A stretch of 9,264 bases of DNA, taken from IMG/VR virus record IMGVR_UViG_2548876863_000017; one strand, written 5' to 3'. This stretch comes from a virus. Its lineage: Duplodnaviria; Heunggongvirae; Uroviricota; Caudoviricetes. Position numbers and translations under genes: made by a program. Shown here piece by piece: positions 1,099-9,264 of the stretch (within the stretch, counting starts at the first letter, position 1; every line of letters starts with the position of its first letter). The notes beneath the pieces were generated by a model. The model searched no databases. It had not been told where the DNA came from and saw only the letters and a list, made by a program, of their open reading frames with translations.

Positions 1099-1854
1099 TT
1101 ATTCAGAATCAATATCTTTTAAATCATCCTGAATCGCTTGTGCGTTCGGATTTTCCTGCGGTTTGAGTTCGCCGCCATTAGCGATGAAATCATGACGCTG
1201 GAAGTACGCTTCGCGCACCATAATATAAGGATCGGACGACTGACGCAGCAGACCATCGGAATCCAACAACTGCGCACGAGTTTCTATCCCTTCAAGCGTC
1301 CATTTACCCACAGACATCGGCCAGGTCAGCCAGGAAAGAACCGGGTAAAGACCATCCGCCATATCACCACCGTCATCACGCAGCGTGAAGCTACCGTAGA
1401 ACGGTAACTGAACGTAAGGCCCATAACCCACGCCATAATGACCAAGCGTACTACCGAAGCGGTGAGGTTCAGTCCGTTGCAGTTTCGGGTTCGCCATCCC
1501 TGCAACATCAATAAAACCGCCCATCCCCAAAATGGTGTTCAGGAAAAAGCGGGTAAAGTGGACCATCCCCTGATAAGGGTCGCCCTGCAAGAAGTAGTTA
1601 ACCATCACCGCAGGTTCTTCAAGGTTGCCAGTAAAGTTGCTCAAACCGTTACGCGCCGGTTGCGGAACATAATCACGCCAGGCGACAGCGACCGGTCGAA
1701 CAATATACGGGTCTAATACATTGAAGTTGAAGTTGTACATGGTGCGGTTGAACCCTTCTAACGGGTCAGAACGCCCTTGCTGATCTGTACCGGAACTCGC
1801 ACACCCCACCAGAAGCGTAGTTCCCAGAGCAAGCGCCGACAGGCGAAGCTTCAT
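1099..1854 (-). CDS. mlaA: MlaA (VacJ), outer-membrane lipoprotein of the Mla phospholipid-transport (lipid asymmetry) pathway
   Basis: 251-aa product with N-terminal lipoprotein signal (MKLRLSALALGTTLLVGC, lipobox LVGC); I recognise the translation as the MlaA/VacJ family. Length equals E. coli MlaA (251 aa). GGAG Shine-Dalgarno lies 7-8 nt upstream of the ATG. Convergent with the yfdF-like ORF and divergent from yfdC, as in E. coli K-12. Confidence 0.9.
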   Translation of the reverse strand: MKLRLSALALGTTLLVGCASSGTDQQGRSDPLEGFNRTMYNFNFNVLDPYIVRPVAVAWRDYVPQPARNGLSNFTGNLEEPAVMVNYFLQGDPYQGMVHFTRFFLNTILGMGGFIDVAGMANPKLQRTEPHRFGSTLGHYGVGYGPYVQLPFYGSFTLRDDGGDMADGLYPVLSWLTWPMSVGKWTLEGIETRAQLLDSDGLLRQSSDPYIMVREAYFQRHDFIANGGELKPQENPNAQAIQDDLKDIDSE

Positions 1855-2147: not shown

Positions 2148-3080
2148 ATGGACAACGACAAAATTGATCAACACAGCGACGAAATTGAAGTTGAGAGCGA
2201 AGAAAAAGAGCGCGGCAAAAAAATAGAAATAGATGAAGACCGACTCCCCTCCCGGGCGATGGCAATTCATGAGCATATCCGCCAGGATGGTGAAAAAGAG
2301 CTGGAACGCGACGCAGTGGCGCTACTGTGGTCAGCCATTGCGGCGGGTCTGTCGATGGGCGCTTCGTTACTGGCAAAAGGGATATTTCAAGTCGAACTGG
2401 AAGGTGTGCCGGGCAGCTTCTTGCTGGAGAATCTCGGTTATACCTTTGGTTTTATTATCGTCATTATGGCCCGCCAGCAATTATTTACCGAAAATACCGT
2501 GACTGCGGTACTACCCGTCATGCAAAAACCGACAATGAGCAACGTCGGCTTACTTATACGGTTATGGGGCGTCGTGCTGCTGGGTAATATTCTCGGGACA
2601 GGTATTGCGGCGTGGGCATTTGAATATATGCCTATCTTCAATGAAGAAACTCGCGATGCATTTGTCAAAATCGGCATGGATGTGATGAAGAACACCCCCA
2701 GCGAGATGTTTGCCAACGCGATCATTTCCGGCTGGCTGATCGCCACTATGGTTTGGATGTTTCCTGCAGCGGGTGCGGCAAAGATTGTGGTGATTATATT
2801 GATGACCTGGCTTATTGCCCTGGGTGACACCACCCATATCGTGGTCGGTTCTGTTGAAATCCTCTATCTGGTGTTTAACGGTACGCTGCACTGGAGCGAT
2901 TTCATCTGGCCCTTCGCACTACCTACTTTAGCGGGGAACATCTGCGGCGGCACCTTTATCTTCGCGTTAATGAGTCATGCACAGATTCGTAACGACATGA
3001 GCAATAAGCGTAAAGCAGAAGCACGCCAAAAAGCAGAACGTGCGGAAAACATTAAGAAAAATTATAAAAACCCGGCATAA
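2148..3080 (+). CDS. yfdC: YfdC, inner-membrane protein of the formate/nitrite transporter (FNT) family
   Basis: 310-aa product with an acidic, charged N-terminal extension followed by multiple hydrophobic helices, consistent with an FNT-type channel. Length and position (between mlaA and argW) match E. coli yfdC as I recall it. Confidence 0.8.
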   Translation: MDNDKIDQHSDEIEVESEEKERGKKIEIDEDRLPSRAMAIHEHIRQDGEKELERDAVALLWSAIAAGLSMGASLLAKGIFQVELEGVPGSFLLENLGYTFGFIIVIMARQQLFTENTVTAVLPVMQKPTMSNVGLLIRLWGVVLLGNILGTGIAAWAFEYMPIFNEETRDAFVKIGMDVMKNTPSEMFANAIISGWLIATMVWMFPAAGAAKIVVIILMTWLIALGDTTHIVVGSVEILYLVFNGTLHWSDFIWPFALPTLAGNICGGTFIFALMSHAQIRNDMSNKRKAEARQKAERAENIKKNYKNPA

Positions 3081-3155: not shown

Positions 3156-3230
3156 GTCCTCTTAGTTAAATGGATATAACGAGCCCCTCCTAAGGGCTAA
3201 TTGCAGGTTCGATTCCTGCAGGGGACACCA
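3156..3230 (+). tRNA. argW: tRNA-Arg, anticodon CCU (argW); probable prophage attachment site
   Basis: I folded it by hand. Acceptor stem GUCCUCU pairs with AGGGGAC (one G-U). Anticodon stem AGCCC/GGGCU has loop CUCCUAA, giving anticodon CCU. T-arm is UGCAG-GUUCGAUUC-CUGCA with the GTTCGA motif. Discriminator A and encoded CCA at 3228-3230. Total 75 nt. A P4-type integrase gene follows immediately. Confidence 0.92.
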
Positions 3231-3355: not shown

Positions 3356-3391
3356 GTGGATAAAATAATTTTACCCACCGGATTTTTACCC

Positions 3392-4546
3392 ATGCTCACC
3401 GTTAAGCAGATTGAAGCAGCAAAGCCGAAAGAAAAACCATACCGCCTTCTCGATGGTAATGGCCTGTACCTTTATGTCCCTGTATCCGGGAAAAAGGTAT
3501 GGCAGCTTCGCTATAAGATTGACGGTAAGGAGAAAATCCTGACCGTCGGAAAATACCCGCTTATGACTTTGCAGGAGGCAAGGGATAAGGCATGGACCGC
3601 GAGGAAAGACATCTCGGTTGGCATCGATCCGGTAAAGGCGAAAAAGGCTTCGTCTAACAACAATTCCTTTAGTGCGATTTACAAGGAATGGTACGAGCAC
3701 AAGAAGCAAGTATGGTCAGTAGGGTATGCGACTGAACTTGCAAAAATGTTTGATGACGACATTTTACCTATCATCGGCGGCCTTGAAATTCAGGATATTG
3801 AGCCAATGCAACTGCTGGAAGTAATCCGCAGATTTGAAGATCGCGGTGCAATGGAACGAGCCAATAAAGCCCGCAGAAGATGCGGCGAGGTTTTCCGTTA
3901 CGCTATTGTCACCGGAAGGGCTAAATATAACCCGGCACCTGACCTTGCTGACGCCATGAAGGGATACCGCAAGAAAAACTTCCCGTTTCTTCCTGCAGAC
4001 CAGATCCCGGCATTTAACAAAGCACTGGCAACATTTTCAGGAAGTATCGTATCGCTCATTGCGACCAAAGTTTTACGCTACACAGCCCTAAGAACGAAAG
4101 AGCTTCGTTCCATGCTATGGAAGAACGTCGATTTTGAAAACAGGATTATCACCATCGACGCCAGTGTGATGAAGGGTCGCAAAATTCATGTGGCTCCTAT
4201 GTCAGACCAGGTGGTTGAACTTCTCACTACGCTAAGCTCTATCACCAAACCAGTATCAGAGTTTGTTTTTGCCGGGCGCAACGATAAGAAAAAGCCAATC
4301 TGCGAGAACGCGGTATTACTTGTGATCAAACAAATCGGCTATGAAGGTCTGGAAAGCGGTCACGGATTCAGGCATGAATTCAGCACGATTATGAACGAGC
4401 ACGAATGGCCTGCTGATGCTATTGAAGTGCAACTGGCACATGCCAACGGCGGATCTGTGCGCGGGATTTACAACCATGCTCAGTATCTCGATAAGCGCAG
4501 AGAAATGATGCAGTGGTGGGCTGATTGGCTAGATTGGAAAATATGA
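3392..4546 (+). CDS. intS: P4-type tyrosine integrase (site-specific recombinase), IntS-like
   Basis: N-terminus MLTVKQIEAAKPKEKPYRLLDGNGLYLYV... is the typical P4-family arm-binding domain. The C-terminal catalytic domain has an HxxR motif (HGFRHEF) and a candidate catalytic Tyr (GIYNHAQYLDK). It lies immediately 3' of a tRNA. The track ORF starts 12 codons earlier (ATG 3356), but ATG 3392 gives the canonical family N-terminus and a 384-aa product. The intS symbol is by analogy to the K-12 argW-adjacent integrase. Confidence 0.88.
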   Translation: MLTVKQIEAAKPKEKPYRLLDGNGLYLYVPVSGKKVWQLRYKIDGKEKILTVGKYPLMTLQEARDKAWTARKDISVGIDPVKAKKASSNNNSFSAIYKEWYEHKKQVWSVGYATELAKMFDDDILPIIGGLEIQDIEPMQLLEVIRRFEDRGAMERANKARRRCGEVFRYAIVTGRAKYNPAPDLADAMKGYRKKNFPFLPADQIPAFNKALATFSGSIVSLIATKVLRYTALRTKELRSMLWKNVDFENRIITIDASVMKGRKIHVAPMSDQVVELLTTLSSITKPVSEFVFAGRNDKKKPICENAVLLVIKQIGYEGLESGHGFRHEFSTIMNEHEWPADAIEVQLAHANGGSVRGIYNHAQYLDKRREMMQWWADWLDWKI

Positions 4547-4607: not shown

Positions 4608-5699
4608 GTGATTAAAAAAAACCTAGAATCCATACAATTTCTTAGAGCGGTGGCAGTTTTGTTGGTGGTTCTATTCCACTACCGTTTTGATGCAGAATCT
4701 TTGATAGCAAACTCAAAGATAATTTTCTTCAATGGATCTATTGGGGTCGACCTTTTCTTTGTTATAAGTGGATTCATAATTTACTATGTTACCGACAACA
4801 ACAAAAAAGGCATTTTCGAGTCAGCATCGTTTATATTAAAGCGAGTAATTAGGGTTTTACCGCCTTATCTTTTAATATCATTTATTTTTGTTTATTTCGG
4901 TAATAAAGATTATATAAAGTTAATACAGTCAATCTCATTCATCCCATTATCTAATAAAGAACCTCCTTTTTATGGATACCCCTCTCTTGTTGTTGGATGG
5001 TCGCTTAACTATGAGATTTACTTCTACATCCTTGCGGCCATTGGGATAATGTTTTTTGGAAAGTGCAAATGGCTTGTTATATCAACATCAATAGTGTCAT
5101 TGATAATGGTGCTGGCATTAATAAACGGAAACATATCATTATCTACCAGTGTGGACTACAACATTAATAGTAGTTACCTTTCGATGGCAACAAATAGTAT
5201 TATTTTAGATTTCACTTTAGGTGTTGCGTGTGGATACTTAGCTAAGCGTGACAATAAGGTTAGCAATACAGCTGTAATAACACTATCTATAGTTTCTATT
5301 GCTATATTTATTATGTGTCTAATGGGTATTTTTAGGTCTGAGCATGGCCCTATGTTTTGGGGGTTGTCGTCATTCTTTTTGGTGCTATCATTTATTGAGC
5401 TAGAAAAGAGAAGCATTTTATATTTTCCTAAGATTCTTATAGTAATTGGCAACATGTCATTTTCAATATATTTAGTTCACATTCCGTGTCTTGTGCTATG
5501 TTATTATTTATTCAATAACATACATCCACTTTTCAACCTAGATAATAAACCTTTACTTATATTTCTATCATCATTAATAGCAACATGCATTTCTTCGTTT
5601 TTTTATTATCATTTAGTAGAGCGATATCTTTGTGAATATTTGAGAAAGTCCATTTTCTCAGCATTATTTATATTTAAAATTCATTCAAGATCTAATTGA
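4608..5699 (+). CDS. Acyltransferase-3 (AT3) family integral membrane protein; candidate phage-encoded O-antigen O-acetyltransferase (Oac/OafA-like) for lysogenic conversion
   Basis: 363-aa polytopic hydrophobic protein. The N-terminal helix carries the AT3 signature spacing of a conserved Arg and His ([14 protein letters not shown]: R13, 10 residues, H24). Position between int and tailspike is where Sf6 carries oac and P22 carries gtrABC (from memory). Start is GTG at 4608: an in-frame TGA sits at 4596-4598 and no in-frame ATG precedes the conserved motif. Only a weak SD (GAGA). Very AT-rich. Substrate and function are inferred. Confidence 0.78.
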
Positions 5700-7640
5700 T
5701 ATATACTTCTTAGCTGTCGACATCCATGGATAGGTTGTCGACGGAAGGTTTTTAAAATGAATTATTGTTTCTCCATTTGTTCCTATTGTCACATATGAGT
5801 TATCTGCACCAAAAGAAATTGTATTAAATCTTGTCATCCTTCCTTGGTACAAAACAGAATTAGAACCATCTGTTGATATTGCTCTAAATTCATATGTACA
5901 ATCACCGTCAAAATATATAGGAGTTATCGCAAATACCTCTTCTCCAGTGTAAGTCAGAGAGTCAATGCGATAGTTGCAGCAGTACTTAACATTATCATCA
6001 ATTGGGATTTCAGCAGTAGGATAAACAAATGGTAGCTGTGTTTTTAAGTTAATTAAGACTGAATTCTTGAATGTATCAGTATTAACAAGTTTTATATTTG
6101 GAAGAGATGTTCCATATTCTGAAACAGATATTTCAGCATTAACAAGGCCATACATGACAACCATGTCATGTATGTTAAACATCCATCCACCATCACCTAT
6201 CTTTAGAAGATGTGATTTAAAGTCGCCATCTGTTTTTCCCAATACTGTTTTAACATTCTCACAGTATATATTATTGAGATTTGTACTAAAGTTCTCACCA
6301 TTAATAGTGATCGCTCTATTCATTTGCTCGAAGGCGCTTCCAGAGAATGTTACATTCTGTGTATTATTTTGAGGGTAAGATGAATTGAATGGTTCAGAAA
6401 GTAAAACACCTAGATCCCTACCTGATATTTTACCTTTGAATGCAACGTTATTTGTTGCACGACCAAGGAATACAGGATACAAGCCTTTAACAGTATCATG
6501 GTCATCAATTATGCAGACATCATATTCAGGGTAAAATCCCTGAACTGAACTTATGGCGATTGCACACCTATAAAATGACACGTCTTTTATATAACACCCT
6601 AACGTAAAGCATCTAAGATTGAAGCAATTTGAAATACCAATGAATTGTATTCCTTCAAATGAAGAGTTTCTCACAATTGCATTGGCGATACAATCCTGAT
6701 CAGAAAGTCCTGATGTATTTGATGTGATCTGGCCTGATAAAAAATACCCTGTTTCAAAAAGAGGAGTAGTTGTAGTGTCAAGATCGGAAACAATTGTTGT
6801 CTGATCACCAACGAAAGCAGTATTAGAAGAAAATATAGTTTTCTGATTTAATGTATAAACGTAATTACCCAATCCTATTTTTCTTCGCTGACCATAGCTA
6901 CCTAACCCTGCGGCTATTGCTGCTTTCTGAAATGCAGGAGAAGAATCGAAATCCGTCTTTTGCTTCGCTGGATATGCGCCAAACCTATCAACATGCAAAG
7001 GAAGTGTCGTAACCCATTTGCTACCAAGCGAATCAATAAACCATGAACCACCATCTGTTTGACCTGGAATTCCAGTTTCACCAGTTCTTCGCATGATATT
7101 TGTTGCATGTGCAGTATTAAATGCGCCTACAGAATCAGCGTGATACTTTACAATAGTCATTGTTTTAATTGCAGATGGAAATGAAGAGGATAATGCAGTT
7201 TCAAAATCTGGAACATACATTGAAGATGCCAAATCATTCATATTGGCATTACCATAGCCAACCAAATAGGCACCATAACTGCCGGCAAGATCTTGCCTTA
7301 ATTGGTCAGGGTCATACTTCAACACATTAGGAAAATAGAACTGCTTCGCACCATATGCATCATAAACAGCCATAGAATGGCCTTGCACGGTAACGAATTT
7401 GGCAATCTGTCCGTTATATACCGGGTAACCAGCAGCGTTAATGATGATTGGTTGCGATACAGGAACATGAGAGCCGTCTTCGTTCTCCACATAAACCTGA
7501 ATCTGGTTTTCAGGATTTACCGGGTCAGTGTCAATTTTACCGATATAAATTTTGCCATTGGCAACCGCTTTAAAAGAACGAGCCATAGTGAAGAGTTGCG
7601 AAGGCATGCTTACCACAACATTTGCGGTGATATCTGACAT
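5685..7640 (-). CDS. Tailspike protein: P22-family N-terminal head-binding domain fused to an unrecognised, probably beta-helical, receptor-binding/depolymerase C-terminal domain
   Basis: From the ATG at 7640 (GGAG SD 7-8 nt upstream) the product begins [113 protein letters not shown]. From memory this matches the conserved N-terminal domain of P22 gp9 and the Sf6/HK620 tailspikes. The remaining roughly 540 residues do not resemble the P22 gp9 body as I remember it. The track ORF starts 16 codons upstream (ATG 7688), which I consider an over-extension. The 3' end overlaps the acyltransferase 3' end by 15 bp. Confidence 0.85.
5714..5753 (+). terminator. Possible weak intrinsic terminator for the acyltransferase transcript, embedded in the 3' coding end of the convergent tailspike gene
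   Basis: CTGTCGAC (5714-5721) can pair with GTCGACGG (5737-5744) as an 8-bp stem with one G-U. The 15-nt loop contains the perfect palindrome ATCCATGGAT. A TTTTT run at 5749-5753 follows, but 4 nt after the stem. Starts 15 nt after the acyltransferase stop. Geometry is imperfect for a canonical terminator. Confidence 0.25.
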
Positions 7641-7761
7641 TTCATTGCTCCAGACGAATGATATGATGCAACCATGATGTGATTGCATACCGAAATGGTA
7701 CTATTGAGTATTTATCCAGTAGGTTACGATGCCATTCCACCCAACTGGTGAGGCATCAAGG
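7641..7761. promoter_or_regulatory. Divergent regulatory region between the tailspike and mnt-like genes; candidate promoters and operator
   Basis: 121-bp AT-rich spacer between divergent start codons. Inverted repeat ATGCAA (7666-7671) / TTGCAT (7683-7688) with an 11-bp spacer. Repeated ATGAT(G) motifs at 7658-7667 and 7674-7679. A CACC-N5-GGTG dyad at 7738-7750 loosely resembles the CCAC/GTGG half-sites of the P22 mnt operator as I recall it. No promoter hexamers could be assigned confidently. Confidence 0.4.
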
Positions 7762-8028
7762 ATGTACAGCAAATACGACGAGGCGCAGTTTCACTTGAGA
7801 CTTCCGCATGAACTCCACGCGAAAATTAAGCAGCGTGCGAAGATGAATAACAGATCGCTGAACTCAGAGATAATTGCAGCGATTGAAGAATCATTGGATA
7901 AACAAAGCTCTGCATCAGTTTACATTGACGATGCAGAGCGTATGGCAGAACAACAATCTGATATGGTTAAGAAAATTGTCTTTGATACGCTTAAGACCAT
8001 GTATAGCAATAATAAAAAGGAAACATAG
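7762..8028 (+). CDS. mnt: Mnt-like ribbon-helix-helix (Arc/MetJ superfamily) repressor
   Basis: 88-aa product MYSKYDEAQFHLRLPHELHAKIKQRAKMNNRSLNSEIIAAIEESL...DDAERMAEQQSDMVKKIVFDTLKTMY. It aligns by eye with P22 Mnt as I remember it, both in the N-terminal RHH DNA-binding part (FNFRMPMEVREKLKFRAEANGRSMNSELLQIVQDAL) and the C-terminal tetramerisation helix (NDAERLADEQSELVKKMVFDTLKDLY). GAGG SD at 7750-7753, 8 nt upstream of ATG 7762. The track ORF starts at ATG 7729, 11 codons upstream; I prefer 7762 from the homology. Confidence 0.82.
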   Translation: MYSKYDEAQFHLRLPHELHAKIKQRAKMNNRSLNSEIIAAIEESLDKQSSASVYIDDAERMAEQQSDMVKKIVFDTLKTMYSNNKKET

Positions 8029-8098
8029 AAATCTAGTTTCCGGCTAAAATGGCATTACCTTCATGATATCCTGTGAAAAACTAAGGAGAGTTAACCAT

Positions 8099-8584
8099 AT
8101 GAAAAAATCACTGTTAATTATCCCGCTTCTGCTGGTTGGATGCGCAAAAGTAAGTGACTATCAAGCAAGTTGCGAACAACGCTATCAAAAGCTTAGCGAT
8201 ATGGCTAATTGCCTTGATGCCAGTGTGAAGAACGACTCACGCATGGCATCAGCACCAACACCTAAGCTGTATGTCCTTGCTGCAAAGATGCTCGGGCAAG
8301 GTGTCGATGAAGGCAAGATAAGTGACGCACAGGCAAGACTTGAGCTTCAGAATCTTTATGTTCAATTACAAAGCCAAGAACAAGCCCAACAAATAGCACA
8401 AAGCCAAGCATTCCAGCAGGCTTTATTGAATTATCAGGCTGTAAACACAATGCAAGCGATCGAGCAAAAAGCGCGCCAGCCTGTTATAACTCAACCTTAC
8501 CCAACACGCGTTGACACATATACAAACTGCAATTCAGGATTTGGAAACACGGTAACATGCAACAGTAGCAGTAATATCAGGTAG
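8099..8584 (+). CDS. Predicted outer-membrane lipoprotein of unknown function, Gln-rich; moron in the slot where P22 carries sieA; candidate superinfection-exclusion or lysogenic-conversion gene
   Basis: Strong SD AAGGAG (8083-8088), then ATG 8099. The product starts MKKSLLIIPLLLVGCAK: a type II signal peptide with lipobox LVGC, and Ala at +2 after the lipidated Cys, which predicts outer-membrane sorting. The mature part has a Gln/Ala-rich probable helical segment (LQSQEQAQQIAQSQAFQQALLNYQ) and a Cys-containing C-terminus. No family recognised. The track ORF (8063) is extended upstream by 12 codons. Confidence 0.75.
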   Translation: MKKSLLIIPLLLVGCAKVSDYQASCEQRYQKLSDMANCLDASVKNDSRMASAPTPKLYVLAAKMLGQGVDEGKISDAQARLELQNLYVQLQSQEQAQQIAQSQAFQQALLNYQAVNTMQAIEQKARQPVITQPYPTRVDTYTNCNSGFGNTVTCNSSSNIR

Positions 8585-8598
8585 TTATATCTTATCTT

Positions 8599-9264
8599 TT
8601 ATTGCTGTTCTGCTGTAATTTGACTTGAAAGTATAGGGCGTATCGCATTTGCAGCATTATTTAGCGCTCTTTCATAAGCTGGCGTTCCAGTTTTAGTGTT
8701 TGCCAGACGTAAGAGAGCATTCCTTGCTGCTTTGGACTCATACAAGCGCATCATTGCACCAAAACCAGCCTCAAGCCCCATTGATACGCCAAGGGTCGCA
8801 GTTGCGCCAATCGTCCTTATCCTGTTGGCTTGCGATTGCCCCGTCTGAGTTACTACATTTGCGGTGTCTGACCTTGCTGTTTGCTGTAGAACTTCATGAA
8901 GAGCATCAAGCTCTTTTATGTGCTTTCCAGAAAAAATAGTGTTGTAAATTTCACCGCCTGACTGAGATTTCAGCTTATTAACTTCAGTGATGAACTTGGC
9001 TGGAGAGTCCCCGGCCTTTTCCGCTATTTTGCTGACGTAAGCTGCACGCATAGCATCTTTCCCCTTATCATCCAGTGCGCTCCAGATTCGTTTCACGTCA
9101 GATGGTTTTCTGCTTAATACAACGGTATTTATAAGTTCAGGACTGGCTTCACTGCTTGCCTTGTTGAGCTTGTTGGCAATGTTTTTATTAAGCACCTTAT
9201 TATAAACGTTGTAAGCGTACAGCGAGGGCCGTATTGACGGGGATGTGTTATTCAGCTGGCAGTG
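8599..9264 (-). CDS. 3' portion of a phage late gene (5' end beyond the right edge); possibly an ejection/injection protein (P22 gp16-like) by synteny
   Basis: I translated the - strand frame from 9264 down to the track start (GTG at 9195) and found no stop (...[33 protein letters not shown]...), so the track ORF start is an artefact of the window edge. Stop is at 8599-8601. Same orientation as the tailspike and convergent with the lipoprotein. The functional call is from position only; I do not recognise the sequence. Confidence 0.5.

What the first reader, a model, noticed from the sequence alone, without database searches (positions are those of the whole stretch)
8099..8584. Outer-membrane lipoprotein moron where P22 carries sieA: candidate undescribed superinfection-exclusion factor
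In P22-like phages the interval between the last ejection-protein gene and the tailspike is a hypervariable accessory locus (sieA, hkcC, immI in P22). Here it holds an Mnt-like repressor gene followed by a 161-aa lipoprotein with a strong SD, lipobox LVGC and a non-Asp +2 residue (predicted outer-membrane). Known phage outer-membrane lipoproteins in comparable roles, such as T5 Llp and phi80 Cor, block the phage's own receptor. P22-like phages need outer-membrane proteins as secondary receptors for DNA delivery (OmpA/OmpC for Sf6, as I recall). A prophage lipoprotein that masks the secondary receptor or interferes with the ejection proteins encoded just downstream is therefore plausible. I do not recognise the protein family.
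Basis: partly seen in the sequence, partly recalled or inferred. Interest (0 to 1): 0.8.

Follow-up and report, generated by a model that had tools for sequence, protein, structure and literature searches.

The report
Lipoprotein gene replacing phage sieA
A real, well-conserved gene for an uncharacterised outer-membrane-type lipoprotein sits in a P22-like prophage of E. coli exactly where phage P22 keeps its superinfection-exclusion gene sieA, which makes it a good but untested candidate for a new phage-exclusion protein.

Summary
Window 8099-8584 (+) encodes a 161-aa prolipoprotein (MKKSLLIIPLLLVGC|A, Ala at +2) downstream of an Mnt/Arc repressor gene. It lies between a P22-type tailspike and a gene-16 ejection-protein remnant cut by an ISEc8-like IS.

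- **Family:** PHROG 6067 ("unknown function"); no Pfam, NCBIfam, PADLOC, PDB or fold relative.
- **Selection:** strong purifying selection (pN/pS 0.06).
- **Frequency:** present in 186 of 5426 complete E. coli genomes.
- **Position:** in all 86 related loci read it is convergent with, and 3-189 nt from, the gene-16 homologue. None has a SieA-like polytopic ORF.
- **Link to sieA:** in some prophages the 589 nt upstream are 98% identical to P22's orf59a-PsieA-leader region, and the identity ends 12 nt before the ATG. The ORF therefore replaces sieA behind the same leader.
- **Slot:** at least 11 unrelated ORFs, nearly all with a signal peptide, TM segment or lipobox, follow this leader in other phages.
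- **Expression:** published LF82 RNA-seq shows the 97.5%-identical Gally copy transcribed from the prophage (4.5x background) and induced in macrophages.

The function is inferred, not shown. Most likely it is an envelope superinfection-exclusion factor. The proposed receptor-masking mechanism is untested.

The parts
8099..8584 (+). Lipoprotein gene (161 aa; PHROG 6067; RefSeq WP_000749291.1 'hypothetical protein')
   Evidence: ORF and sequence. phrog_6067 at E 1.6e-110 over 161/161. pN/pS 0.059. 94 homologue clusters in Enterobacterales.
8099..8143 (+). Signal peptide with lipobox LVGC (Cys15 = lipidated +1 residue; +2 is Ala)
   Evidence: Read from the sequence. C15 invariant and G14 at least 90% conserved in 32 homologues. 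No Asp at +2 in the homologues shown.
8144..8473 (+). Mature N-terminal domain, residues 16-125: four-helix bundle with invariant Cys25 and Cys38, whose last helix continues as a long Gln-rich helix
   Evidence: AF2 model m1460d1ba60a2, pLDDT 88, helices 18-28, 32-45, 53-70, 76-125. C25 and C38 invariant in 126 sequences. This domain alone defines a superfamily of about 250 clusters at 50% identity.
8513..8575 (+). C-terminal beta-hairpin, residues 139-159, with a conserved Cys pair (TNCNSGFGNTVTCNSS); a module that is swapped between homologues
   Evidence: Strands 139-146 and 152-159. Cys pair conserved and two C-terminal variants seen on similar N-terminal parts.
8060..8088 (+). Conserved leader TTCATGATATCCTGTGAAAAACTAAGGAG (includes the SD AAGGAG at 8083-8088), shared with the 5' leader of P22 sieA
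   Evidence: 86% identical to the P22 sequence ending 7 nt before sieA's GTG. Conserved in most upstream classes, including the window's. The same leader precedes at least 11 unrelated ORFs in IMG/VR contigs.
7729..8028 (+). Mnt/Arc-family repressor gene (RefSeq start corresponds to 7762); stop is 70 nt before the lipoprotein ATG, with no terminator found between them
   Evidence: Pfam Arc 1.2e-14 and Repressor_Mnt 1.2e-12. RefSeq 'Arc family DNA-binding protein'. Terminator scan found none.
8599..9210 (-). 3' remnant of the gene-16-type ejection (DNA transfer) protein gene, convergent with the lipoprotein gene (14 nt between the two stop codons)
   Evidence: phrog_770 positions 449-664 of 668. 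99% identical to the C-terminus of intact L012-type gp16. Divergence from intact genes begins after 9210.
9211..9264 (.). End of an IS66-family (ISEc8-like) insertion sequence that interrupts gene 16
   Evidence: 100% match at about 9850 places in 3413 E. coli genomes, annotated as IS66/ISEc8 transposase regions.
5685..7640 (-). P22-type tailspike gene; the other boundary of the accessory interval
   Evidence: Pfam Head_binding 2e-66 on residues 1-113.

Best explanation
**What it is.** The gene encodes a prophage-expressed envelope lipoprotein that is one of several interchangeable cassettes in the sieA slot of P22-like prophages.

**How it is made (inferred from the sequence).**
- The precursor is exported.
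- It is lipidated at Cys15 and cleaved by signal peptidase II.
- Because +2 is Ala rather than Asp, the Lol pathway sends it to the outer membrane.
- This leaves three parts in the periplasm: a disulfide-braced four-helix bundle, a Gln-rich helical extension of the bundle's last helix, and a small disulfide-closed beta-hairpin.

**How it is transcribed.** It is transcribed in the lysogen independently of the late operon. In some prophages it sits behind the same upstream region and leader as P22 sieA. In this window it sits 70 nt after mnt and is possibly co-transcribed with it.

**Most likely function.** It protects the lysogen against superinfection, probably by P22-like phages. It would act at the outer membrane or periplasm on DNA delivery, either on the ejection-protein conduit or on an outer-membrane partner the phage needs. 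This would be the outer-membrane counterpart of the inner-membrane block made by SieA.

**Shown:** the gene and its lipobox, purifying selection, fixed position, the shared sieA leader, absence of sieA where it is present, and transcription of a 97.5%-identical copy in a lysogen.

**Inferred:** outer-membrane location, exclusion activity, and the target.
For: **1. Position.** In the window, 80 IMG/VR loci, phage Gally, and Yersinia, Morganella and Tatumella prophages, the gene is convergent with the gp16 homologue. Where measured, it lies 3-189 nt from its stop. This matches sieA in P22, which lies 22 nt from gene 16.

**2. Shared upstream region.** In L052 and L077 the 589 nt upstream are 98% identical to P22's orf59a-to-sieA-leader region. 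The junction is at the SD/start codon. According to PMC10883804, 85 bp upstream of sieA (putative PsieA) were enough for exclusion when moved to galK.

**3. Mutual exclusion with sieA.** No type-A SieA hit and no ORF of at least 90 aa with at least 3 hydrophobic segments lies in the tailspike-to-lipoprotein interval of 83 loci. Only 22 of 66 P22-like phages carry sieA.

**4. The slot behaves as an envelope-protein hotspot.** Of 116 contigs with the leader, 40 have this lipoprotein and 5 have SieA. The rest hold at least 9 other unrelated ORFs. All of those but one (a 140-aa ORF in 2 contigs) have a signal peptide or TM segments.

**5. Expression.** LF82_138 (Gally) is the second most transcribed prophage gene after c2 in LB, at 4.5x the prophage median. 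It rises about 16-fold in macrophages, while the injection gene next to it stays at background.

**6. Selection and spread.** pN/pS is 0.059. The gene is in 186 of 5426 E. coli genomes, all copies chromosomal. Every near relative (at least 46% identical) whose context could be read was in a P22-like prophage.

**7. Precedent (established knowledge).** Lipoproteins Cor and Llp inactivate FhuA. Ltp blocks injection by binding the tape-measure protein. T4 Sp inhibits the tail lysozyme in the periplasm. Cor is cited in PMC11436027.
Against: - No exclusion assay exists for any family member, and no paper mentions its identifiers.
- Guilt by position is not function. The same interval also holds regulators (mnt, arc, ant) and, in Tatumella, a Rap1a-family (T6SS immunity) gene.
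- The authors of the LF82 study scored Gally as having no moron, because this gene fell just under their 5x cut-off.
- Its induction in macrophages is shared by all five genes at that prophage end, on both strands. That may reflect regional derepression rather than dedicated control.
- The protein is nearly invariant next to four divergent gp16 types, which argues against a type-specific contact with gp16.
- More distant relatives of the N-terminal domain occur in ordinary chromosomal contexts, so the fold itself is not phage-specific.
- The promoter in the window's own configuration was not resolved.
Confidence: 0.5

Rival explanations
1. It is a host-fitness or virulence moron. On this view it is an outer-membrane lipoprotein that alters envelope properties (serum or macrophage survival, stress tolerance), like lambda Bor or plasmid TraT, and has no role against phages.
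For: The Gally copy is induced about 4-fold in cell-culture medium and about 16-fold inside macrophages. It is kept intact in a prophage whose gene 16 is IS-disrupted, both in this window and in L001. The gene is AT-rich, about 42% GC against about 50% for the flanking host genes, as is usual for acquired, H-NS-silenced accessory genes.
Against: Every near relative (at least 46% identical) whose context could be read was in a P22-like prophage at this one slot. All 190 E. coli copies are chromosomal and none is on a plasmid. General fitness morons such as bor tend to spread among phage types (my knowledge). The macrophage induction is regional, not gene-specific. The gene shares its leader with a proven exclusion gene.
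Confidence: 0.2
2. It is a periplasmic immunity or inhibitor protein. On this view it neutralises an incoming envelope-damaging enzyme. The enzyme could be a peptidoglycan hydrolase carried by a superinfecting phage's ejection proteins (as T4 Sp does for gp5), or an interbacterial toxin such as a T6SS effector or a bacteriocin.
Confidence: 0.12
3. It is a lytic-cycle accessory. On this view the lipoprotein is needed late in infection, for example to stop progeny from ejecting into envelope debris (as T5 Llp also does) or to assist lysis.
For: According to PMC10883804, P22 sieA at the same slot is also up-regulated during induction. The gene is embedded in the late region.
Against: It is antisense to the late operon. 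It is transcribed in uninduced LF82 cultures while the late genes are at background. Many P22-like phages lack it altogether (5 of the phage records; other cassettes), so it cannot be essential. The lysis cassette with Rz is elsewhere in Gally.
Confidence: 0.08

Closest known systems
P22 SieA (PHROG 7745; inner-membrane superinfection-exclusion protein; PMC10883804)
   Same: Same genomic slot and orientation (convergent with gene 16). In some prophages it shares the same upstream 589 nt, including the putative PsieA and the leader/SD. It is prophage-transcribed at a modest level. It is found in many of the same Enterobacterales genera and only in P22-like prophages. The two never occur together in the loci read.
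   Different: No sequence similarity. SieA is a polytopic inner-membrane protein with 4 hydrophobic segments. This protein has only a cleavable lipoprotein signal and is predicted to be outer-membrane anchored and soluble in the periplasm. Its function is untested.
Cor (phi80/N15) and Llp (T5): outer-membrane lipoproteins that inactivate the FhuA receptor
   Same: A small phage-encoded lipoprotein with a predicted outer-membrane destination and disulfide-forming cysteines.
   Different: No homology. The only PHROG Cor signal is E 0.035 over residues 1-31, i.e. the signal peptide. It is larger (146 mature residues), mostly helical, and carried by O-antigen-specific podoviruses that do not use FhuA. 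No receptor partner has been identified.
Ltp of Streptococcus phage TP-J34 (lipoprotein that blocks DNA injection by binding the tape-measure protein; PMC3952083, and cited in PMC10883804)
   Same: A prophage-expressed, lipid-anchored, mainly helical protein exposed in the compartment the incoming DNA conduit must cross. This is the best model for interfering with the ejection apparatus rather than with the receptor.
   Different: Ltp is from a Gram-positive host and is anchored to the cytoplasmic membrane. The two are unrelated in sequence, and no structural match appeared in the PDB searches.
Lambda Bor / plasmid TraT (lipoproteins conferring serum resistance; TraT also excludes OmpA-dependent events)
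   Same: An accessory outer-membrane lipoprotein expressed from a lysogen or plasmid. Expression is raised in host-cell-like conditions (Bor of prophage Perceval behaves similarly).
   Different: No homology by Pfam or PHROG. It is restricted to a single slot of one phage group.

Membership tests
Bacterial lipoprotein (signal peptidase II substrate) | N-terminal signal peptide with a basic n-region, a hydrophobic core, and a lipobox [LVI][ASTVI][GAS]C with Cys within roughly the first 15-35 residues | tested here: met
   MKKSLLIIPLLLVGC has K2/K3, no charged residue in positions 5-14, and L-V-G-C at 12-15. Cys is invariant in 32 homologues and at least 90% conserved in 126.
Bacterial lipoprotein (signal peptidase II substrate) | Actual lipidation and cleavage (globomycin sensitivity, palmitate labelling) | not testable with these tools
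   No LipoP/SignalP or experiment was available.
Outer-membrane-sorted lipoprotein (Lol pathway, '+2 rule') | No Asp at +2 (the inner-membrane retention signal in Enterobacterales) | tested here: met
   +2 is Ala and +3 is Lys in the window. +2 is A, V, T, Q or S in the homologues shown, never D. Localisation itself is not shown.
SieA family (P22 superinfection exclusion) | Sequence homology to SieA types A-C; polytopic inner-membrane topology; FxRYPxEAxxFNK motif (PMC10883804) | tested here: not met
   PHROG assigns 6067, not 7745. There are no hydrophobic 19-mers beyond the signal peptide, and the motif is not in the sequence.
SieA family (P22 superinfection exclusion) | Location between genes 16 and 9 of a P22-like prophage, convergent with 16, behind PsieA | tested here: met
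   This is a positional equivalence, not family membership.
Superinfection-exclusion protein (functional class) | Expression in the lysogen reduces plating or DNA entry of superinfecting phage | not testable with these tools
   No assay is reported for any member.
Cor / Llp receptor-blocking lipoproteins | Homology to Cor (PHROG 1119) or Llp; carried by FhuA-dependent phages | tested here: not met
   The only Cor signal is a signal-peptide-level match (E 0.035, residues 1-31). The host phages have O-antigen tailspikes.
Moron (independently transcribed prophage accessory gene) | Transcribed in the lysogen above prophage background, independently of lytic operons | tested here: inconclusive
   The Gally copy is 4.5x above the prophage median in LB and much higher in macrophages, with the neighbouring late gene silent. 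It is below the authors' 5x cut-off. No expression data exist for the window's mnt-linked configuration.
Moron (independently transcribed prophage accessory gene) | Own promoter and terminator flanking the gene | tested here: inconclusive
   The consensus scan found no promoter immediately upstream and no terminator. Some loci carry the annotated P22 PsieA region. The window keeps only its last 29 nt.
Type II secretion pseudopilin GspK (name given to a Cronobacter homologue) | Score above the NCBIfam NF037980 cut-off (130 bits) | tested here: not met
   18.9 bits over 53 residues. The source annotation is spurious.

The most novel reading that the evidence does not exclude
The sieA position of P22-like prophages may be a cassette-exchange hotspot. 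A shared leader drives at least 11 unrelated small envelope proteins. Its commonest occupant in E. coli, this lipoprotein, would be the founding member of a new exclusion family. It would work from the outer membrane and jam the podovirus ejection-protein conduit (or its outer-membrane docking partner) independently of gp16 type. That would be the first outer-membrane-anchored inhibitor of a podovirus ejectosome. The other cassettes would then be a ready-made library of further uncharacterised exclusion proteins.
Probability: 0.25. Interest if true: 0.75.

Novelty: new variant of a known kind. Interest (0 to 1): 0.55.

Why it matters
- **An unexplained gap.** Only about a third of sequenced P22-like phages carry sieA (PMC10883804). 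What the others put in that slot has not been examined in the papers found here.
- **A candidate answer.** This lipoprotein sits behind the sieA-type leader in about a third of the viral contigs sampled. It occurs in 3.4% of complete E. coli genomes, including EHEC O26:H11 and the Crohn's-associated strain LF82.
- **If it excludes phages.** It would add an unrelated protein family and a different compartment (outer membrane/periplasm) to the few known ways of blocking podovirus DNA delivery. It would also give a handle on the poorly understood gp7/gp20/gp16 conduit. It would matter for phage typing and therapy of E. coli, Shigella and Salmonella.
- **If it is a macrophage-induced envelope factor.** It would be relevant to AIEC biology.
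- **Either way it is testable.** The experiment is cheap: one plasmid and a plating assay.

Tried and rejected
- **Family libraries.** Pfam, NCBIfam and PADLOC scans of the protein and of 21 superfamily members gave no family. The only hits were noise: DUF2802 at E 0.39, GspK at 18.9 bits against a 130-bit cut-off, and scattered lipoprotein signal-peptide matches.
- **PDB sequence search.** A profile search gave nothing below E 0.4.
- **Promoter and terminator.** The consensus scan found no promoter just upstream and no terminator. My hand reading of a possible extended -10 (TGaTATCCT at 8064-8072) is not conserved in the Gally-type upstream class. I do not rely on it.
- **Second word-indexed search.** Running it with the superfamily alignment added almost no distant members.
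- **Contexts of distant relatives.** They were mixed: chromosomal, phage-like, and next to TIR/STAND genes. They gave no functional lead.
- **Considered and rejected.**
  - Spanin (Rz1-like): wrong locus, and Gally has Rz elsewhere.
  - Chance ORF or pseudogene: pN/pS is 0.06.
  - The longer ORF from ATG 8063: not conserved.
Full report
**What the window is.**

| Coordinates | Feature |
|---|---|
| 1099-1854 (-) | mlaA |
| 2148-3080 (+) | yfdC |
| 3156-3230 (+) | tRNA-Arg(CCU), argW |
| 3356-4546 (+) | IntS-type integrase |
| 4608-5699 (+) | AT-rich Acyl_transf_3 gene |
| 5685-7640 (-) | P22-type tailspike (Head_binding 2e-66) |
| 7729-8028 (+) | Mnt/Arc repressor gene |
| 8099-8584 (+) | the ORF of the finding |
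| 8599-9210 (-) | last ~200 codons of a gene-16-type DNA-transfer (ejection) protein gene |
| 9211-9264 | end of an IS66-family (ISEc8-like) element |

- This is the right end of a P22-like prophage at argW of E. coli.
- The nearest complete genome is OkiPb01684 at 99.9% identity. There the prophage is riddled with IS1, IS3-family and IS100 insertions.
- An apparently intact relative sits at the same site in O26:H11 strain 11368.

**Observation.**
- The start at 8099, not the upstream in-frame ATG at 8063, is supported by RefSeq, by the conserved SD and by the MKK start of all homologues.
- It is not a chance ORF. Across 83 loci there are 54 nucleotide alleles but only 28 protein variants, giving pN/pS = 0.059.

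**What the protein is.**
- It is PHROG 6067, "unknown function" (E 1.6e-110 over the full length).
- Nothing in Pfam, NCBIfam or PADLOC matches it.
- RefSeq calls it a hypothetical protein in every genome listed.
- Close relatives (46-99% identical) form 94 clusters, all in Enterobacterales: Escherichia, Citrobacter, Serratia, Klebsiella aerogenes, Cronobacter, Pectobacterium, Yersinia, Morganella, Providencia and Tatumella.
- They also occur in five sequenced phages: Gally, vB_EcoP-720R6, VSe13, a Salmonella phage record and Proteus phage Brookers.
- An exhaustive HMM search finds about 250 clusters at 50% identity (96 with E ≤ 1e-10). These share the lipobox and the first ~100 residues, and usually a C-terminal Cys-x10-Cys hairpin. 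None of the 21 members scanned has a Pfam or NCBIfam family.
- With a 126-sequence alignment AlphaFold2 gives a confident model (pLDDT 88):
  - a signal-peptide helix;
  - a four-helix bundle (18-28, 32-45, 53-70, 76-125) with invariant Cys25 and Cys38;
  - a Gln-rich extension of the last helix;
  - a Pro-rich linker;
  - a beta-hairpin (139-146 and 152-159) carrying the second Cys pair.

**Where it sits: the main result.**
- In the window, in 80 IMG/VR contigs carrying a protein at least 97% identical, in phage Gally, and in prophages of Yersinia ruckeri (63% identical), Morganella morganii (61%) and Tatumella (61%), the gene is always convergent with the gene-16 homologue. Where measured, it lies 3-189 nt from that gene's stop. 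This is exactly how sieA sits in P22.
- The upstream neighbour varies: an Mnt-like gene as here, P22-type mnt plus orf59a, ant/arc, a second lipoprotein gene (Gally gene 14), or the tailspike directly.
- The gp16 neighbour falls into at least four types, 34-48% identical to each other, while the lipoprotein stays at least 97% identical. The gene is therefore an independent module.
- In loci L052 and L077 the 589 nt upstream are 98% identical to P22 from orf59a through the mnt terminator and the annotated sieA promoter. Identity runs to a point 12 nt before the lipoprotein ATG, which is 7 nt before sieA's GTG. The ORF has replaced sieA precisely behind its leader and SD.
- Leavitt et al. showed that sieA with 85 bp of this upstream sequence is sufficient for exclusion when moved to galK (PMC10883804).
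- The window retains only the last 29 nt of this leader (8060-8088, 86% identical to P22). These follow the mnt stop by 31 nt. No terminator was found in between, so co-transcription with mnt is possible but not shown.
- No type-A SieA homologue, and no ORF of at least 90 aa with three or more hydrophobic segments, is present between tailspike and lipoprotein gene in any of 83 loci.

**The slot is a cassette hotspot.**
- I scanned IMG/VR for the leader CATGnTATCCTGynnAAAACTAAGGAG.
- I then read the ORF behind the leader in 116 contigs:

| ORF behind the leader | Contigs |
|---|---|
| This lipoprotein | 40 |
| 129-aa protein with a signal peptide | 17 |
| 109-aa N-terminal TM plus coiled-coil protein | 17 |
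| 107/109-aa TM plus coiled-coil pair | 15 |
| 62-aa two-TM protein | 7 |
| SieA | 5 |
| 106-aa TM protein | 5 |
| 75-aa two-TM protein | 5 |
| 140-aa soluble protein | 2 |
| Two small signal-peptide proteins | 1 each |

- Among the alternative cassettes scanned, all that match PHROGs fall in "unknown function" families, and the 140-aa ORF matches none; SieA alone is annotated.
- Ten or eleven of these twelve groups are envelope-targeted. That is what one expects of a locus devoted to changing the cell surface or periplasm of the lysogen.

**Expression.**
- Phage Gally is prophage 1 of AIEC strain LF82, and its gene GALLYPH_13 (LF82_138) is 97.5% identical.
- The values below come from S1 Table of Misson et al. 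(PMC9928086):

| Condition | log2(fpkm+5), two replicates |
|---|---|
| Stationary LB | 6.29 / 5.96 |
| Conditions labelled B1 and B6 | 7.9-8.2 |
| Macrophages, 1 h | 10.29 / 10.30 |
| Macrophages, 6 h | 8.70 / 8.54 |

- In LB this is about 70 normalised counts against a prophage median of 15.6. Only the c2 repressor is higher.
- The convergent injection gene GALLYPH_12 stays at 3.6-4.2 throughout.
- The authors' moron cut-off was 5x (78 counts), so they reported Gally as having no moron. The gene missed by a hair.
- All five genes at that prophage end, on both strands, rise in macrophages. The induction may therefore be regional.
That arrangement has a different upstream region from the window's.

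**Mechanism.**
- Shown: a selected, lysogen-transcribed lipoprotein gene that substitutes for sieA.
- Inferred from established rules: SPase II processing at Cys15 and Lol-dependent transfer to the outer membrane, because +2 is never Asp.
- Inferred from position and from the nature of the sister cassettes: a role in protecting the lysogen's envelope against incoming phage.
- I consider interference with DNA delivery at the outer-membrane/periplasm level the most likely function (confidence about 0.5). The target is open. It could be an outer-membrane protein used after O-antigen binding; Sf6 uses OmpA or OmpC. It could equally be the ejection-protein conduit or a peptidoglycan-cutting activity.
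- The near-invariance of the protein beside four gp16 types argues against a type-specific gp16 contact. SieA itself, however, excludes phages with very divergent E-proteins.
- The two interchangeable C-terminal hairpin variants on similar N-terminal domains look like a specificity module. I could not test that.

**Rivals.**
- A Bor/TraT-like fitness moron (0.2) is favoured by the macrophage induction. It is disfavoured because every close copy whose context could be read sat in this one slot of one phage group.
- A periplasmic immunity or inhibitor protein (0.12) is suggested by two things. A Rap1a-family gene lies next to it in Tatumella. SLT-domain proteins are the convergent neighbours in L212 (where SLT is fused to gp16) and L213. 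If the inhibited enzyme is phage-borne, this rival merges with exclusion, as with T4 Sp.
- A lytic-cycle role (0.08) fits poorly with antisense orientation and with expression while late genes are silent.

**Comparison with the known.**
- It works, at most, like SieA (same slot and leader), Cor/Llp (outer-membrane lipoproteins) or Ltp (a lipoprotein that blocks injection).
- It is a member of none of these families. The homology tests were run and failed.
- No paper in the library mentions WP_000749291, LF82_138, GALLYPH_13 or phrog_6067.
- The SieA paper does not discuss what replaces sieA.

**Verdict.**
- The protein is an unannotated family, so if it excludes phages it is a new variant of a known kind of system.
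- Interest is moderate to high (0.55). The claim is not startling to a P22 specialist. It is, however, frequent in pathogenic E. coli, directly testable, and it opens a set of at least ten sister cassettes.

Noticed in passing
window 9211-9264 (and L001 10611-10640): Gene 16 is interrupted by the end of an IS66-family (ISEc8-like) element, GTAAGCGTACAGCG..., found at about 9850 places in E. coli genomes. The 99.9%-identical genome OkiPb01684 has a different IS (IS3-family, TGAACCGCCCCGGG...) inserted 13 nt further into gene 16, plus IS1 in the tailspike. These look like independent IS hits on the same prophage.
   Followed up: partly
IMG/VR loci from the leader scan (L097 onward; e.g. L097, L099, L102, L111, L119, L131, L140): The sieA-type leader CATGnTATCCTGynnAAAACTAAGGAG precedes at least 11 unrelated small ORFs. 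Nearly all have a signal peptide or TM segments. Those tested that match PHROGs fall in 'unknown function' families (2651, 8100, 5962, 21338, 10450, 7294, 19844); the 140-aa ORF has no match and three groups were not scanned. This looks like a cassette-exchange hotspot worth its own study.
   Followed up: partly
L002 5447-5866 (-) (phage Gally GALLYPH_14 / LF82_139): A second predicted lipoprotein (MKRIIGVVAGAILLSGC..., 139 aa, phrog_6823 unknown) lies divergent from the lipoprotein gene in Gally-type prophages. It is even more strongly induced in macrophages (log2 from about 5.5 to 11.0 in PMC9928086 S1 Table).
   Followed up: partly
L212 4604-4942 (+) and 5468-8125 (-); L213 1762-4422 (-): In a Tatumella P22-like prophage a Rap1a-family (T6SS amidase immunity) gene sits between the mnt-like gene and the lipoprotein gene. 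There the gene-16 homologue carries an N-terminal SLT lytic-transglycosylase domain, and the convergent neighbour in L213 also has an SLT domain.
   Followed up: no
L091 7001-9329; L092 512-6956: A distant superfamily member (P0164, 33% identical over about half the query) lies directly upstream of a TIR-domain gene and, in L092, an nSTAND NTPase/WD40 gene. This is a defence-island-like neighbourhood in a metagenomic contig.
   Followed up: no
window 8513-8584; alignment A1 columns ~140-175: Homologues carry one of two C-terminal hairpin versions (…TNCNSGFGNTVTCNSSSNIR or …TTNCTTYGNQTRCQSY) on otherwise similar N-terminal domains (e.g. P0025). This suggests recombinational swapping of a small module, and both versions occur in E. 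coli.
   Followed up: no
window 7729-8028: The Mnt/Arc-family gene has no arc or ant partner here, unlike P22. Its target is therefore unclear. It lies about 90-120 nt from the divergent tailspike start, and the gene is 16 codons longer than P22 mnt (RefSeq starts it at 7762).
   Followed up: no
window 4608-5699: A very AT-rich (30-34% GC) Acyl_transf_3 gene lies between the integrase and the tailspike, and its 3' end overlaps the tailspike gene's 3' end by 15 nt. It is presumably an O-antigen acetylase for serotype conversion. O26 strain 11368 has a different acyltransferase in the opposite orientation at this place.
   Followed up: no
P0023 (Cronobacter dublinensis homologue): This homologue is annotated in NCBI as 'general secretion pathway protein GspK'. 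The underlying NCBIfam match is 18.9 bits against a 130-bit cut-off, so the name is an annotation error.
   Followed up: yes
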